64,000 nt of DNA from Candidatus Hodarchaeota archaeon (GCA_048887225.1 JBHLJY010000001.1:320001-384000), one strand, 5' to 3'; shown: positions 452 to 52,292, counted from the first letter of the stretch. The notes: generated by a model not told the origin, from the letters alone. A program made the numbers and translations.

Positions 452-559
452 TTTGACATCTTTTCCTTTTAATGATTTATTCTGTATAGAAAAAGTAAAA
501 TAAAGATCTTTAATTTATTTATAAAAATCATTTAAAAATATAATAAAATGTGATTTGAT

Positions 560-1374
560 ATGGATTGGGGAATGAGAAATCGATTTTCTCGAATAATTAA
601 GCCTAAATCTGGACGCTGTGTTATGTTAGCAATAGATCATGGTTACTTTGGAAACATTCCGGGACAATTAAAGTGTTTTGATGATTTAAATCCATTGTTT
701 GAATATGCTGATGCATTAATGCTAACTCGTGGAATGCTTAGGAACTGCGTTTCCCCTGAACTAGATATTCCAATTGTTTTGAGGGTATCCGCCGGTGCAA
801 GTATGCTTAAAGAGCTTTCAAATGAAGAAATCAACGTGGCTTTAGACGATGCTTTGAGATTAAATGTAGCAGCGTTGACTTGTTCCATTTTTGTTGGTGG
901 AGAATACGAAAAACAAACTTTAATGAATTTATCTAAATTAGTAAATTGGGGTCAGCAATATGGGATTCCAACATTAGCAGTTACAGCAGTAGGGCGTGAA
1001 ATGGTGAGGGATGCTCGTTATTTAGGTATGGCAAGTAGAATGGCTGCCGAAATGGGAGCAACCTTCGTTAAAACATATTATTGTGAGAATTTCGAAGAGG
1101 TCACCAGCATTTGTCCCGCACCAATAGTAATTGCTGGCGGCAAAAAAATTGAGGAAAGAGACGCATTACAAATGAGCAAGAATGCTGTTGATAAAGGGGC
1201 TGTCGGCGTAGACTATAACTATTTTATTTAGTTATAGGCGCATATATGGGAAGAAATATATTCCAATCTGACAGCCCAATCGGTATGATAAAGGCAGTAA
1301 GAGCAATAGTCCATGATAATGTTCCAGTTGATGAGGCTTTCGAAATATATAAAAATGGTCCTAAAGGATTGTAA
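560..1374 (+). CDS. lsrF: LsrF/DhnA-family class I aldolase-like thiolase (3-hydroxy-5-phosphonooxypentane-2,4-dione thiolase-like), interrupted by a 32-nt insert at 1212-1243; 260 aa if spliced
   Basis: [13 protein letters not shown] start, [16 protein letters not shown] and PIVIAGGKK motifs. The C-terminus [23 protein letters not shown]...GL* continues in another frame (1246-1374). GTGAT RBS 5 nt before the ATG; T-tract right after TAA 1374. Confidence 0.88.
1212..1243 (+). other. Putative bulge-helix-bulge (BHB/BHL-type) intron in a protein-coding gene
   Basis: Central helix GCGT(1206-09)/GCGC(1238-41), bulges AGA(1210-12) and ATA(1242-44), intron stem CTATAACT(1213-20)/AGTTATAG(1230-37). 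Cutting after the 2nd nt of each bulge gives GTA GAT ATG GGA = V-D-M-G. Confidence 0.78.
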
Positions 1375-1377
1375 GAC

Positions 1378-1405
1378 TTTTTTTTTTTTCCTTTTTTTTA
1401 TTTTA
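1378..1405 (+). terminator. Oligo-T archaeal-type terminator after lsrF
   Basis: T12-CCC-T7 tract directly after the stop at 1374. Confidence 0.65.
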
Positions 1406-1500
1406 ACACTGAAAGGTATAGTTTTTATCAAGGTTAATTTAATAAATCTTTATTTATTTTTTTCCACATCAAAATGAGATTTATGAGAATATAATTTACA

Positions 1501-15000: not shown

Positions 15001-15103
15001 GGCCCGGTTAGTATAGCGGTTAGTATTGGGGACTGTGAATCCCTAGATGTTCAAGATTTTATCATGAACTGGGGAAAGACGGGTTCGATTCCCGTACCGG
15101 GCC
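15001..15103 (+). tRNA. tRNA-His(GTG) with encoded G-1 and a 30-nt intron at non-canonical position ~45/46 (15047-15076)
   Basis: Acceptor GCCCGGT/ACCGGGC, C73, anticodon arm GGGGA-CTGTGAA-TCCCT, T arm ACGGG-TTCGATT-CCCGT. BHB: CCCT/GGGG helix, AGA and AAA bulges, GTTCA/TGAAC stem. CCA not encoded. Confidence 0.92.
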
Positions 15104-15122
15104 CTCTTTATTATGTTAAAGG

Positions 15123-32300: not shown

Positions 32301-33685
32301 ACTTATCACCAGATATCGCTTCTCTTTTGCAAAATATCGTTAATCGTGACAATTGGCAAAGTGCCAGTGAAAACAGCACTTTTGGGATTTATATTGATGC
32401 ATCAACCGGATTAAATGAGCGATTATATTTCCATTCTTTTGACGGACCTAATCCTGATTATACACCAAAATTAATTGTTAATTGGGCGGAGCCTCTTACT
32501 CCTACATATAAACAATCAGATTTCGATGCAACTGATCAACTTATAACAACAGACTATAACATAATAAATGTCATTGGAGTCTGGAACACTTCGGATCATT
32601 CTTATGGAAATCTATATAATGAATCAAATGGAGATTATTTCACTGGAAATTATACCATTTTGAAAACTCCACAACCTTTGAATCAAACAGCTTTATGGAT
32701 TAGATATGAATCAGATGAAATTCTTGTAGAATCAGACAACGAATTGAATATAAATGGTGAATCCATAGGAACAAGATCATTAAAATGGGCCAGATCTGAG
32801 CCATCGATTCTTATACGTGATGAAAGTTTAAATTATATTATAGACATTGAAGATTACTATAATATTATAGACATTGAAGAAGAAGAAATTCTGACATTTT
32901 ACATTGATTATAATAACTATACAAGACTAAATGGCAAAATTTCCTTTAATTTCGTTGATAATCTCGGAAGAAAAATGAGGTCCAATCCAATCCAATTTGG
33001 AAATACATCTTATGGAGATTGGCAAGAAATAGCACTACCTATTAATTACCAAAATTTTAGAATAGACACTGGGTTTGATTTCAAAGCGGAAAAATTAATT
33101 GAATTTGAATATAGTGGAACTGAGCAAGTGGAGATTTACATCGATCATATAAGCATCTATTCTAAAGATGCTTATAGCTCACATCAATATTTTACATATA
33201 ATTTACAAATAAGGTATTCGGATTTTAGCTATTTTCTCGCAAATGTTTTCCTGAAGCCAGCACTAAAAGAAAAGATAATACCCAATACCGGAGATCCCAA
33301 CCTTAAATGGAATCAAGACAGATCACATACGAGCTATTGGAACTTTCTTGACTTGATTGCAACGAGTAAAGTATTTGTAAACGAATGGGACGATGAAGAA
33401 TTTAATCAGCATTCGACAGGAGCCAACCTACTCTTAGAATGGTATGGTGTACAAAACCAATTTGAAGCATTTTGTTCGTTAATTGGCGCTGAAATTGAGG
33501 AATTAGAACCGGCCACCACGGAGGAGGATATATATCCCTACGCTCAAAAATTCGCAATGACGGCGATTTATTTTTCCTTAGGATTCATTGCCTCTCTTGC
33601 GAGCATTAAAAGGATAGGGAGATATCGAAGTAGAAAAAAAATAGAAAAAATAAGGAAAAAATACGGAAAAAAAATAATAAAGTAG
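29375..33685 (+). CDS. Large surface glycoprotein B1 (two DNRLRE/CBM96-like modules, LEA_2/WHy-like domain, C-terminal TM)
   Basis: N-terminal TM; LDNRGDND...LGEG...VPA (LEA_2-like); repeated DDA..ICLR.NL.IP..PKL module; TM plus Lys/Arg tail. Confidence 0.8.
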   Translation: MKKMRGSRTLKKIAPFLVVVGIFTAMAAPLALHTINELTPYLNLSDVVEMPEATMLDSFEIVDKEYDKTAEERLFSVSNTEIKTTHPIYEVDGIFLQSEYDTMKYPRNYFTEGKVYIHDNVIDVGYNPLPNYTYSNVHTRSTFLTREVFNISQSADDAYIQFGPPIYPSGATLDLGGAKFLIGGYQICLRWNLSIPENSNIIYTYLDLTLKSANLNGFISEFFTFDSINTSDFSDTNENIYQTRPLIEPGVIWDLYNKPVIANVTWKSPDISSLMNLIIGRDDWKNNSIFGLFLEAGDLYVADPDSDGVEDGEFVSFHSFDGPNPLYKPKLNVGWEKKADPYTYKKLEISKTWQHIDTGHNILNVIGVWNTSDHSYGNLYNESNGDYFDGKHIYLKTPQPRNQTSLWYSIKSDEAPVVVEYTIKEWTSITWRFNLKLDNRGDNDVIFPAANVTLNYLDERLGEGWIPHTYEVPAHQDEIFEMYIIMENDKQTSLFVNALLLGLPIELIGIMEIYILIEDANGDPLLPIKQSQEFEFFVPAAERGPPPFIHSLNRGGVSAYEDVEITITATDEGTGINDHGRSFIYYSVDNGISWEQAQLTGPPWDWKFKGEYLGSGTYPLNSTLSPQTYSGEIPGFQGGTHVLFYIYLEDYADNYEHKKPGNIAISQTYSYVVPSGGALPSFSVEFVEIIEDDAGDKFFDYIEEHGININYYLYSKGTWFTANWVFKYLPYITTFAEILYDKDVDHNYANDLIVIDLPTAIGILADSGVASGYLLQGLGINLEDFFTYLVDHIMLPVNDEYSYIAQQRRKEIFIVDNLEGSFVGDWSSIPSDVVNEYDDSKFTKIQLNDTYTIKYSEDDAYTRNTGTIYNGLTLALGGYKNLDSAYQRRICLRYNLTIPKNAVILNAYLNLTVESWSTVGGSAYNGFTSQIWTFDNVSTPDFSNSGENIMNTRSRVSGPIDWPMPDYITITKNQSYLSPDIASLLQNIVNRDNWQSASENSTFGIYIDASTGLNERLYFHSFDGPNPDYTPKLIVNWAEPLTPTYKQSDFDATDQLITTDYNIINVIGVWNTSDHSYGNLYNESNGDYFTGNYTILKTPQPLNQTALWIRYESDEILVESDNELNINGESIGTRSLKWARSEPSILIRDESLNYIIDIEDYYNIIDIEEEEILTFYIDYNNYTRLNGKISFNFVDNLGRKMRSNPIQFGNTSYGDWQEIALPINYQNFRIDTGFDFKAEKLIEFEYSGTEQVEIYIDHISIYSKDAYSSHQYFTYNLQIRYSDFSYFLANVFLKPALKEKIIPNTGDPNLKWNQDRSHTSYWNFLDLIATSKVFVNEWDDEEFNQHSTGANLLLEWYGVQNQFEAFCSLIGAEIEELEPATTEEDIYPYAQKFAMTAIYFSLGFIASLASIKRIGRYRSRKKIEKIRKKYGKKIIK
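32835..32880 (+). repeat. 19-bp direct repeat with 27-bp period (in-frame 9-aa duplication unique to B1)
   Basis: ATATTATAGACATTGAAGA at 32835 and 32862; paralog B2 has a single copy. Confidence 0.85.
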
Positions 33686-51539: not shown

Positions 51540-51554
51540 TTTTTAAGCAAACCA

Positions 51555-52292
51555 CTAATTTTCGATAAGTCCATCTCTCAAATGAATAACTGATGTCGCA
51601 AACTTTTCTGCTATATGTAAATTATGAGTAACAAATATACAAGTAATGCCTTCAGTTTCGTTTAGTTTAATAATTAACTCTAAAATCCTATCACTCGTTT
51701 CTGTATCTAAATTTCCAGTAGGTTCATCACATAATAGAAGGAAATTTCTTCCCACGAATGGTATTTTTGCTAAAGCTCTTGCAACTGCCACTCGTTGTTG
51801 CTCACCTCCACTTAGCTGAGAAGGATAATGAAATAATCTATCACCTAATCCAACCTTTTCCAAATAATCAGTCGCAATTTCAAGAGAGTCTAAATCGCTT
51901 TTTAATTTCTTTTTTAGAAGATCTATTCCAATTATCACATTATCCAAAGTATTTAGGGCAGGAAATAGATTAAAGAATTGGAAGATAAAGCCGATTCTCT
52001 CTCGTCGATAATCAGTTAATTGTTTATTATTGAAATTTTGAATTTCATTATTGAAAATTTTTAGAGATCCTTCATTTTCATCTGGATTAGTTATACCGCC
52101 TAATAAATTCAGCAATGTTGTTTTTCCTGATCCAGATGGGCCTAAAATTATTATTCTTTCTCCATTTTCTACTTTAAAATTTAGATTTTTTAAGGCTCGG
52201 ACAATTATTTCTCCAGATATGTAAGTTTTGGAAATATTAACACTTTCAATTGCATTTCCTTGGTAGATTACATTTTCTTTACTTTTGGACAT
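51555..52292 (-). CDS. ABC transporter ATP-binding protein
   Basis: [23 protein letters not shown]. Confidence 0.95.
   Translation of the reverse strand: MSKSKENVIYQGNAIESVNISKTYISGEIIVRALKNLNFKVENGERIIILGPSGSGKTTLLNLLGGITNPDENEGSLKIFNNEIQNFNNKQLTDYRRERIGFIFQFFNLFPALNTLDNVIIGIDLLKKKLKSDLDSLEIATDYLEKVGLGDRLFHYPSQLSGGEQQRVAVARALAKIPFVGRNFLLLCDEPTGNLDTETSDRILELIIKLNETEGITCIFVTHNLHIAEKFATSVIHLRDGLIEN

What the first reader, a model, noticed from the sequence alone, without database searches (positions are those of the whole stretch)
1200..1250. Candidate bulge-helix-bulge intron inside a metabolic protein-coding gene (lsrF-like)
Seen in sequence: the ORF stops prematurely at 1231, but the conserved C-terminus (MGRNIFQS...) resumes at 1246 in another frame and ends at TAA 1374, followed by an oligo-T terminator. 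The insert folds as a 4-bp helix GCGU/GCGC, two 3-nt bulges (AGA 1210-12, AUA 1242-44) and an 8-bp intron stem CUAUAACU/AGUUAUAG; the exon-side helix is weak (relaxed BHB/BHL). Established: archaeal splicing endonuclease EndA cuts after the 2nd nt of each bulge. Applying that rule removes exactly 1212-1243 (32 nt) and gives GTA-GAT-ATG-GGA, restoring GVDMGRN and a 260-aa protein. Protein-coding BHB introns are best known from crenarchaeal cbf5. Inference: this lineage splices mRNA with its tRNA machinery. The unspliced mRNA has an in-frame stop, so splicing would be required for expression and could be regulatory.
Basis: partly seen in the sequence, partly recalled or inferred. Interest (0 to 1): 0.93.

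Follow-up and report, generated by a model that had tools for sequence, protein, structure and literature searches.

The report
tRNA-type intron splitting an aldolase gene
A 32-base insert shaped like a tRNA intron interrupts a sugar-phosphate aldolase (LsrF-family) gene of a Lokiarchaeia-type Asgard archaeon, and comparison with about 110 related genomes indicates that the mRNA must be cut and rejoined by the tRNA-splicing enzymes to make the protein.

Summary
Window 1212-1243 is a 32-nt insert in an LsrF-family class I aldolase gene. It folds as a 4-bp helix (1206-1209 with 1238-1241), a 3-nt bulge and a 9-bp hairpin. Cutting after the 2nd nt of each bulge gives GVD|MGRN, which is exactly the sequence of about 100 uninterrupted orthologs.

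The organism is a Promethearchaeia (Lokiarchaeia-type Asgard) MAG from marine sediment.

- **Conservation:** the same intron is present in 13 of 111 orthologs across several genera.
- **Covariation:** compensatory changes occur in the exon-intron helix (CG, UA and AU) and in the hairpin. 95.9% of cells pair, against 27-42% when the partners are slid.
- **Selection:** the 3' exon is under strong purifying selection (dN/dS 0.03-0.26).
- **Other sites:** three further intron positions in the same gene obey the same cutting rule.
- **Same genome:** I verified such inserts in rtcB, uL11 (two) and an FGGY kinase. The genome encodes an (alpha-beta)2 EndA with the broad-specificity loop.

No RNA data could be found, so splicing itself is inferred. 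A regulatory role is pure speculation. The scan had already noted similar introns elsewhere in this genome. The held literature documents mRNA BHB introns only for crenarchaeal cbf5.

The parts
560..1211 (+). 5' exon of the LsrF-family aldolase gene (217 codons plus the first base of the Asp codon)
   Evidence: ORF list. NF006081 profile positions 32-252 and Pfam DeoC. E. coli LsrF residues 34-253.
1206..1209 (+). Central helix H, 5' strand (GCGU), which is exon sequence
   Evidence: MFE fold. It covaries with 1238-1241 in 13 genomes; the second pair is CG:8, UA:3, AU:2.
1210..1212 (+). 5' bulge AGA; predicted cut between 1211 and 1212
   Evidence: Unpaired in the MFE fold. Invariant in all 13 carriers. 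This cut position gives the ortholog junction.
1212..1243 (+). Intron, 32 nt; contains the in-frame stop TAG 1229-1231 and shifts the frame
   Evidence: Absent from about 100 orthologs and present in 13. Single copy in the genome.
1213..1237 (+). Intron hairpin h' (9-bp stem 1213-1221 with 1229-1237, 7-nt loop)
   Evidence: Six of its 9 pairs show changes on both sides across carriers.
1238..1241 (+). Central helix H, 3' strand (GCGC), which is intron sequence
1242..1244 (+). 3' splice-site trinucleotide AUA; predicted cut between 1243 and 1244. No outer helix closes it (relaxed HBh' form).
   Evidence: No complementary exon bases flank it.
1244..1374 (+). 3' exon: the last two bases of the Asp codon, MGRNIFQS...GPKGL, and stop TAA 1372-1374
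   Evidence: NF006081 profile positions 252-288. LsrF residues 254-289. dN/dS 0.03-0.26 among intron carriers.
1378..1399 (+). Two oligo-T runs (12 T, CC, 8 T): likely archaeal transcription terminator
   Evidence: Read from the sequence. Function inferred from general knowledge of archaeal oligo-T termination.

Best explanation
Window 1212-1243 is a genuine archaeal bulge-helix-bulge-type intron of the relaxed HBh' form, located in the pre-mRNA of an LsrF-family class I aldolase gene.

Inferred mechanism:
1. The gene is transcribed as one RNA.
2. Four exon bases (GCGU) pair with four intron bases (GCGC) next to a 9-bp intron hairpin. This presents the 5' site in a 3-nt bulge and the 3' site in the single-stranded AUA just after the helix.
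3. The cell's (alpha-beta)2 splicing endonuclease EndA cuts after the second nucleotide at each site (1211|1212 and 1243|1244).
4. The RtcB ligase joins the exons, and probably circularises the 32-nt intron.
5. The spliced mRNA encodes a 260-aa enzyme with the junction GVD|MGRN.

Unspliced RNA can only give a 223-aa product. That product lacks the conserved GRN segment (aligned to E. coli LsrF residues 255-257) and the C-terminal 42 residues.

Shown here: the anatomy, the exact frame restoration, conservation with covariation, selection on the 3' exon, and the presence of the enzymes.

Inferred: that cleavage and ligation actually occur, and which enzymes carry them out.
For: **Junction**
- The rule-based cut gives exactly the junction found in uninterrupted orthologs of 80-92% identity. 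Their gene length is 783 nt, against 815 nt here.
- Profile and structure numbering are seamless across the cut.

**Conservation and covariation**
- The same intron sits at the same site in 13 genomes of several genera. It is 32 nt, or 30 nt in two of them.
- On alignment A1, 95.9% of cells pair, against 27-42% for slid partners.
- Seven of 13 pairs change on both sides, and 0 of 500 shuffles reach the observed values.
- The exon-intron pair 12-45 is CG:8, UA:3, AU:2 with no unpaired case.

**Selection**
- All spliced-equivalent sequences are open.
- dN/dS of the 42-codon 3' exon among intron carriers is 0.03-0.26, with dS about 1 or saturated. This is similar to the 5' exon.

**Other sites in the same gene**
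- Three more insert sites occur in relatives: site A (30 nt, 6 genomes), site B (30 or 36 nt, 3 genomes) and site D (30 nt, 1 genome).
- Each has the layout H4-B3-hairpin-H4-B3, and each restores the frame exactly when cut after the second bulge nucleotide.
- Site A: 96.9% of cells paired, 4 compensatory pairs.

**Gene tree**
- Presence of the site C intron needs at least 9 changes on the tree.
- Near-identical sister genes differ only by precise presence or absence of the intron.

**Same genome**
- The only RtcB locus is split by a 29-nt insert (UUGG/CCAA, bulges AUA and AAA) that joins GGVGY|DINCG.
- uL11 carries 36-nt and 28-nt inserts.
- An FGGY kinase carries a 33-nt insert, with Pfam FGGY_N positions 1-78 before it and 79-245 after it.

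**Machinery**
- There are two EndA paralogs of about 200 aa.
- One is closest to the Aeropyrum pernix catalytic alpha subunit. It keeps the residue aligned to that enzyme's His in ...GLEHSPFIVH and the K-P-R of the Crenarchaea-specific loop, aligned to K44 and R46 (role of K44 from PMC3241643).
- The other has Ser at the position of that His, like a structural beta subunit.

**Not a repeat**
- The intron is single-copy in the genome.
Against: - No RNA-level evidence exists for this organism.
- The outer exon helix h is absent, so the 3' site is not a closed bulge. In the MFE fold, AUA 1242-1244 is drawn into a weak 6-bp A-U hairpin with 1256-1261. That hairpin is not conserved in the other carriers.
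- Archaeal transcription and translation are coupled, so ribosomes could reach the in-frame TAG before splicing. How this is avoided is unknown.
- The ligase gene itself needs splicing, which is a circularity with no shown solution.
- My genome-wide structure-plus-ORF scan did not enrich the canonical motif over mirror or offset controls. Such introns are therefore at most a few tens per genome and cannot be recognised by structure alone.
Confidence: 0.88

Rival explanations
1. The gene is a pseudogene. A small hairpin-forming DNA element or an insertion scar disrupted it, and the downstream part is no longer expressed.
For: The unspliced frame stops at TAG 1229-1231. No RNA evidence of splicing is available.
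Against: - The insert is conserved at the same site in 13 genomes of several genera.
- The 3' exon is intact, with dN/dS 0.03-0.26.
- Compensatory changes maintain exon-intron pairing.
- The insert is single-copy, not a repeat family.
- Essential genes (rtcB, uL11) in a 98%-complete genome carry the same kind of insert.
Confidence: 0.02
2. The protein is made without RNA splicing. Either two separately translated pieces assemble (223 aa, plus 42 aa from ATG 1246), or the ribosome hops over the insert as in phage T4 gene 60.
For: The 3' exon happens to begin with ATG 1246-1248, the conserved Met of VDMGRN.
Against: - That Met is present in the intron-less orthologs too, so it is not a dedicated start.
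- The exons downstream of sites A, B and D, and of the rtcB, uL11 and FGGY inserts, do not begin with start codons.
- No matching take-off and landing codons flank the insert.
- Neither model explains covariation of the 4-bp exon-intron helix, or why the cut-after-second-bulge-base rule restores the frame at every site.
Confidence: 0.04
3. The insert is removed from the RNA by something other than EndA plus RtcB, for example another structure-specific endonuclease and ligase pair, or self-cleavage.
For: The 3' site lacks the outer helix. The only rtcB gene itself needs splicing. No enzyme assay was possible.
Against: - The geometry (4-bp helix, 3-nt bulge, cut after the 2nd bulge base) is the EndA signature. 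The same rule was confirmed for cbf5 (PMC2738675).
- The genome has an (alpha-beta)2 EndA with the loop shown to permit relaxed and bulge-helix-loop substrates.
- The genome's tRNA genes are rich in introns.
- The inserts are too short (22-36 nt) for a ribozyme.
Confidence: 0.05
4. The 32 nt are an assembly or sequencing artefact.
For: The independent DNA contigs that I laid did not cover 1146-1315, so there is no direct re-observation of this exact strain.
Against: Homologous inserts at the same site occur in 12 other, independently assembled MAGs from different studies. They differ in sequence but keep the structure.
Confidence: 0.01

Closest known systems
cbf5 (pseudouridine synthase) pre-mRNA intron of Crenarchaeota (Watanabe 2002; Yoshinari 2006; Yokobori 2009, PMC2738675)
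   Same: [quoted passage not shown]
- Unconventional (relaxed) motif.
- Cleavage between the 2nd and 3rd bulge residues.
- Attributed to a hetero-oligomeric EndA.
- Patchy gain and loss among relatives.
   Different: - The host is an Asgard (Promethearchaeia) archaeon, not a crenarchaeon.
- The gene is metabolic (LsrF-family aldolase), and cbf5 here is uninterrupted.
- The same gene has four different intron sites across one family.
- Several other genes in the same genome, including the ligase gene rtcB, are interrupted.
- Splicing of cbf5 was shown by cDNA. Here it is only inferred.
Non-canonical archaeal tRNA introns (HBh' and BHL motifs), as in Thermoproteales and Asgard tRNA genes (PMC5829648; PMC11291895; bioRxiv 10.64898/2026.10.13.758758)
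   Same: - Same motif architecture and size range.
- Same enzyme type, (alpha-beta)2 with the L1/CSL loop.
- Same lineage-level abundance of introns.
   Different: - The substrate is an mRNA with no tRNA body.
- The intron must be removed to restore a reading frame.
- Exon bases of the motif are also constrained by coding.
HAC1/XBP1 unconventional mRNA splicing (IRE1 endonuclease plus tRNA ligase/RtcB)
   Same: - Spliceosome-independent removal of a short (XBP1: 26 nt) frame-shifting mRNA intron by a protein endonuclease.
- Joining by the tRNA ligase.
- The spliced form encodes the active protein.
   Different: - A different endonuclease (IRE1) recognises twin 7-nt loops, not a bulge-helix-bulge.
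- That system is a regulated stress switch. No regulation is shown here.
E. coli LsrF (3-hydroxy-5-phosphonooxypentane-2,4-dione thiolase; PDB 3GKF, 4P2V) and M. jannaschii MJ0400 aldolase (2QJG)
   Same: The two exons align to LsrF residues 34-253 and 254-289 (E = 3e-73 and 2e-9). This includes the motifs ...KTYY and MGRNIFQ. NCBIfam equivalog NF006081 scores 322.8 + 47.7 bits against a cut-off of 297.
   Different: - No lsr operon lies around it. The neighbours are a metallo-beta-lactamase-fold protein and a Zn-dependent dehydrogenase.
- The physiological substrate in Asgard archaea is unknown.
- The gene is interrupted.

Membership tests
Archaeal BHB (EndA-type) intron | Central 4-bp helix H formed between the two splice-site regions | tested here: met
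   GCGU 1206-1209 pairs with GCGC 1238-1241 in the MFE fold. 98.1% of cells pair across 13 genomes, with CG/UA/AU covariation at the second pair.
Archaeal BHB (EndA-type) intron | Two 3-nt bulges on opposite strands, each flanked by H and an outer helix (strict hBHBh') | tested here: not met
   The 5' bulge AGA is closed by H and h'. The 3' AUA follows H, but no exon helix h can form. The motif is therefore the relaxed HBh' form, not the strict form. Relaxed forms are accepted substrates of (alpha-beta)2 EndA (PMC5829648; PMC3241643).
Archaeal BHB (EndA-type) intron | Intron-side helix h' adjoining the 5' bulge | tested here: met
   9-bp stem 1213-1221 with 1229-1237. 94.9% of cells pair and 6 of 9 pairs show compensatory changes.
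Archaeal BHB (EndA-type) intron | Cutting after the 2nd nucleotide of each bulge yields the functional RNA | tested here: met
   Removing 1212-1243 gives GVD|MGRN, identical to about 100 intron-less orthologs. It is contiguous in NF006081 and in LsrF numbering. The rule also holds at sites A, B and D, and in rtcB, uL11 and the FGGY kinase.
Archaeal BHB (EndA-type) intron | Host encodes a splicing endonuclease able to cut relaxed motifs outside tRNA | tested here: met
   There are two PF01974 paralogs of about 200 aa. The alpha-like one is closest to A. pernix EndA alpha (3P1Z_B, E = 5e-35) and keeps the aligned His and CSL residues K and R. The beta-like one lacks that His. Enzyme activity was not assayed.
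Archaeal BHB (EndA-type) intron | Host encodes the 3'-phosphate RNA ligase RtcB | tested here: met
   One RtcB locus at C13:33313-34649, 483.7 + 53.5 bits. It is itself split by a 29-nt BHB insert at 33458-33486.
Archaeal BHB (EndA-type) intron | Spliced RNA and excised or circular intron observed | not testable with these tools
   No RNA run holds the stretch. The laid contigs do not cover the junction in a carrier.
LsrF / DhnA-type class I aldolase family (DeoC/LacD fold, NF006081) | Full-length match above the curated cut-off, including the Schiff-base Lys region and the C-terminal GRN motif | tested here: met
   Exon 1 scores 322.8 bits (cut-off 297) and exon 2 scores 47.7 bits. Pfam DeoC matches at 8e-14. 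...VKTYY aligns to LsrF ...IKTYY, and MGRNIFQ is identical to LsrF residues 254-260. That the Lys in KTYY is the catalytic residue comes from my own knowledge and was not tested.
LsrF / DhnA-type class I aldolase family (DeoC/LacD fold, NF006081) | lsr operon context (AI-2 processing) | tested here: not met
   The neighbours are an MBL-fold protein and a Zn-dependent dehydrogenase, and no lsr genes are nearby. I therefore call it an LsrF-family aldolase/thiolase of unknown substrate.

The most novel reading that the evidence does not exclude
Promethearchaeia (Lokiarchaeia-type Asgard archaea) maintain a turning-over population of EndA/RtcB-spliced mini-introns in ordinary protein-coding genes.

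- One aldolase gene has four intron sites across a single family.
- The same genome also has inserts in rtcB, uL11 and a sugar kinase.
- Closely related strains differ by precise gains and losses.

If so, protein-enzyme-based mRNA splicing is a routine part of gene expression in the closest prokaryotic relatives of eukaryotes, with the ligase gene itself dependent on it. This would be a much broader phenomenon than the single cbf5 case documented so far.
Probability: 0.7. Interest if true: 0.9.

Novelty: new member of a known kind. Interest (0 to 1): 0.8.

Why it matters
**What is new.** In the literature I could search, confirmed mRNA splicing by the tRNA endonuclease in Archaea is limited to one gene (cbf5) in Crenarchaeota. 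This case is a metabolic gene in an Asgard archaeon, with population-level evidence that the RNA motif is under selection. The same gene has been invaded at four positions.

**Practical consequence.** Gene callers will report such genes as truncated or frameshifted. Asgard proteomes and metabolic reconstructions are therefore systematically wrong at these loci.

**Conceptual consequence.** It makes a long-standing question testable. The question is whether interrupted protein-coding genes, and a need to separate RNA processing from translation, already existed in the archaeal lineage that gave rise to eukaryotes.

**Concrete material for experiments.** The 60-80-nt substrates and the two EndA subunits identified here are ready for in vitro tests.

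Tried and rejected
- **RNA evidence.** The look-up of sequencing runs listed no RNA holder for window 500-1500.
- **Laid runs.** I laid four runs: two DNA runs and two labelled metatranscriptomic. None covered 1146-1315 in a carrier. One contig of a run labelled metatranscriptomic (marked 'probably DNA') runs on as ...KGVDMGRNIF. It differs at about 10% of positions and resembles an intron-less relative (like L004), so it says nothing about splicing.
- **Genome-wide scan.** The scan required H with all four pairs (G-U allowed), a 3-nt bulge, a stem of at least 5 bp and length 14-130, plus spliced ORFs of at least 60 and 30 codons.
  - It gave about 2,100 loci, equally for the canonical motif, for the mirror-image motif and for cuts offset by +/-1.
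  - The background comes from gene ends in this 30% G+C genome.
  - Filters for compact hairpins, for absence of a start codon and for a stop inside the intron did not produce enrichment.
  - The scan cannot count introns.
- **Spot check of the scan.** I sent five compact candidates to Pfam.
  - One was real: the FGGY kinase.
  - Three were gene boundaries: CCG/HdrA-like, isocitrate-dehydrogenase-like and glutamate-synthase parts.
  - One was unresolved: a hydantoinase-like ORF that starts mid-domain.
- **Mobile-element idea.** The 32 nt have no second copy in the genome.
- **Translational hop.** No matching take-off and landing codons are present.
- **Outer helix h at site C.** No complementary bases are present.
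- **Literature.** Six full-text searches found no paper on BHB introns in Asgard protein-coding genes. Subscription journals are not covered, so this is not proof of absence.

Full report
**1. The observation**

- An ORF from ATG 560 ends at TAG 1229-1231.
- A 42-codon ORF in another frame runs from ATG 1246 to TAA 1372-1374. Two oligo-T runs follow (1378-1389 and 1392-1399).
- The first ORF is an LsrF-family class I aldolase: Pfam DeoC at 8e-14, and NCBIfam NF006081 at 322.8 bits against a cut-off of 297.
- The family profile is covered from position 32 to 252 by the first ORF and from 252 to 288 by the second.
- Against the solved E. coli LsrF structure (3GKF), the pieces align to residues 34-253 and 254-289.
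- Homology alone therefore places a break exactly between ...GVD and MGRN....

**2. The fold**

The RNA minimum-free-energy structure of 1190-1262 contains these elements:
- the 4-bp helix GCGU (1206-1209) with GCGC (1238-1241);
- the 3-nt bulge AGA (1210-1212);
- a 9-bp hairpin, 1213-1221 with 1229-1237.

The order is H, bulge, h', loop, h', H, and then AUA (1242-1244). This is the order found in archaeal pre-tRNA.

No exon helix closes the 3' trinucleotide.

Cutting after the second base of each trinucleotide removes 1212-1243 (32 nt) and gives GTA-GAT-ATG-GGA, a 260-codon frame.

In this genome, a motif with all four H pairs, a 3-nt bulge and a stem of at least 8 bp occurs at about 2e-5 per (position, length) pair. 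Homology allows only two equivalent registers.

**3. The organism**

The genome is 3.27 Mb in 49 contigs, 30.5% G+C, with many intron-containing tRNA genes. Close relatives of the gene lie in MAGs, most of them titled Promethearchaeota or Promethearchaeia (the Lokiarchaeia-type Asgard archaea). These include Loki_b32 and AMARA_1S. The DNA runs that hold the stretch are labelled sediment or marine sediment metagenomes.

**4. Comparative evidence at this site**

- In 135 genomes of the same family, 111 have an ortholog at E <= 1e-80.
- Most are uninterrupted 783-nt genes in which ...GVD is followed directly by MGRN... in one frame.
- Thirteen genomes, from several genera, carry an insert at exactly this site. 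It is 32 nt in eleven of them and 30 nt in two.
- The inserts are homologous but diverged. On their alignment (A1), the proposed structure pairs in 95.9% of cells, against 27-42% when the partners are slid by 1-3 columns.
- Seven of the 13 pairs show changes on both sides. None of 500 column shuffles reaches the observed pairing, covariation score, or count of double changes.
- The most telling pair is the second pair of helix H. It joins the third position of a Gly codon in the exon to an intron base, and it is C-G in 8 sequences, U-A in 3 and A-U in 2, with no mismatch.
- All 13 carriers use GUA for the Val codon that supplies the first bulge base. Among 79 distinct intron-less orthologs the figure is 51%. 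This is a weak hint only, because the sequences are related.

**5. Selection on the downstream exon**

With the inserts removed, every carrier gives an open frame. Among carriers, the 42-codon 3' exon has dN/dS of 0.03-0.26, with synonymous sites near or at saturation. This is similar to the 5' exon.

In eleven carriers the 3' exon is out of frame with the 5' exon, and in all of them a stop precedes it. This level of constraint is not compatible with a dead gene.

**6. More introns in the same gene**

Relatives carry inserts at three other positions:
- site A, in the ...IDHG|YFG... region: 30 nt, six genomes;
- site B, in ...AGG|KK...: 30 or 36 nt, three genomes;
- site D, near the N-terminus: 30 nt, in Loki_b32.

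Some genes carry two or three of them. G012 has sites A, B and C.

I worked each through by hand. Every one has a 4-bp helix, a 3-nt bulge, a 7-9-bp hairpin, the helix partner and a second trinucleotide. One site B version has an A.G mismatch in H. Cutting after the second bulge base restores the ortholog sequence exactly.

Site A also has a 3-bp outer helix. It pairs in 96.9% of cells and has four compensatory pairs.

On a tree built from the spliced-equivalent gene, site C needs at least 9 changes of state. Near-identical sister genes (L003/L004; L027 against L039 and L042) differ only by the precise presence or absence of the intron. This indicates repeated exact loss, or possibly transfer.

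**7. The same genome**

- The only RtcB locus is split between profile positions 47 and 47.
- The 29 nt at C13:33458-33486 fold as UUGG/CCAA with bulges AUA and AAA and a 9-bp hairpin. The rule joins GGVGY|DINCG.
- The uL11 gene has two inserts, C4:65628-65663 (36 nt) and C4:65567-65594 (28 nt). The second is a textbook hBHBh' with a 5-bp outer helix. Together they restore ...VTGGSASGGPPIGPAVGPTGINIK....
- An FGGY sugar kinase has a 33-nt insert, with Pfam FGGY_N positions 1-78 before it and 79-245 after it.
- cbf5, the classical case, is uninterrupted here.
- Earlier notes of this scan pointed to rtcB, uL11 and the kinase. I re-derived each of them myself.

**8. The machinery**

There are two EndA paralogs of about 200 aa.
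- One is most similar to the catalytic alpha subunit of the Aeropyrum pernix heterotetramer (3P1Z_B, E = 5e-35). It keeps the aligned His (...GLEHSPFIVH...) and the K-P-R of the Crenarchaea-specific loop, aligned to K44 and R46. Those residues were shown to confer cleavage of relaxed and bulge-helix-loop substrates (PMC3241643).
- The other has Ser at the His position, as a structural beta subunit would.
- This agrees with the published statement that Asgard archaea have (alpha-beta)2 EndA with the L1 insert (PMC5829648).

**9. What is not shown**

- I found no RNA data. No RNA run holds the stretch, and the contigs I laid did not cover the junction in a carrier. Splicing is therefore inferred from evolution and anatomy, not observed.
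- It is not known how the cell prevents ribosomes from terminating at TAG 1229-1231 before splicing.
- It is not known how the first RtcB is made when its own mRNA needs ligation.
- There is no evidence for or against a regulatory role.
- My attempt to count such introns genome-wide from structure plus ORF continuity failed. The canonical motif was no more frequent than mirror-image or mis-registered controls, and only one of five spot-checked candidates was real. The introns number at most a few tens per genome and need homology to be found.

**10. Comparison with what is known**

The closest known case is the cbf5 pre-mRNA intron of Crenarchaeota. It shares the relaxed BHB, the cut between bulge residues 2 and 3, the hetero-oligomeric EndA, and patchy gain and loss.

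That 2009 paper states that splicing had been confirmed for no archaeal protein-coding gene other than cbf5 (PMC2738675).

Papers on Asgard introns in the held library deal with tRNA genes only (PMC11291895; bioRxiv 10.64898/2026.10.13.758758). Six full-text searches found nothing on Asgard mRNA BHB introns, but the library lacks most subscription journals.

Mechanistically this is the same kind of element, so I file it as a new member of a known kind. The lineage, the type of gene, the four sites in one gene and the company it keeps in the genome are what make it interesting.

**11. Verdict**

Confidence that this is an EndA/RtcB-spliced mRNA intron is 0.88. Interest is 0.8.

Noticed in passing
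L006 (G021:C144:3831-7487), ortholog of the window gene: An uninterrupted ortholog has two in-frame TAA codons where all other orthologs have GAA (G-E-Y-E becomes G-*-Y-*). It could be a pseudogene, G-to-T sequencing errors, or recoding.
   Followed up: no
L128 (NJBH01000024.1, Promethearchaeota archaeon Loki_b32), near the 5' end of the ortholog: A fourth intron site in the same gene: a 30-nt insert with helix GAUU/GAUU, bulges AAU and AAA, and a 7-bp hairpin. Cutting by the rule restores ...DWGFQNRLNRII....
   Followed up: partly
Own genome C13:33458-33486 (+): The only RtcB (RNA ligase) gene is itself split by a 29-nt frame-shifting BHB insert. The enzyme thought to join the exons therefore depends on splicing of its own mRNA.
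   Followed up: partly
Own genome C4:65567-65594 and 65628-65663 (-): The ribosomal protein uL11 gene carries two BHB inserts (28 and 36 nt) separated by a 33-nt micro-exon.
   Followed up: partly
Own genome C5:191631-191663 (-): An FGGY-family sugar kinase gene carries a 33-nt in-frame BHB insert with stops. Pfam FGGY_N positions 1-78 lie before it and 79-245 after it.
   Followed up: partly
Own genome C36:1119-1898 (-): A hydantoinase/oxoprolinase-like open frame begins at Pfam Hydantoinase_A position 151. I found no upstream exon in the frame predicted by my scan. It may be another intron with different borders, or a broken gene.
   Followed up: no
Own genome C13:47028-47369 (+): cbf5 (TruB_N), the one archaeal gene with a published BHB mRNA intron, is a single open frame here.
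   Followed up: partly
window 15002-15104 (+): For tRNA-His(GUG), Rfam matches 102 nt, while ARAGORN without introns nt and with introns nt. The gene probably has an intron that the default caller misplaces.
   Followed up: no
window 51542-51574 (-): A 33-nt weak BHB-like hit between two long same-strand frames. The downstream frame starts with Met (MNILLKK...), so this is probably just a gene boundary.
   Followed up: no
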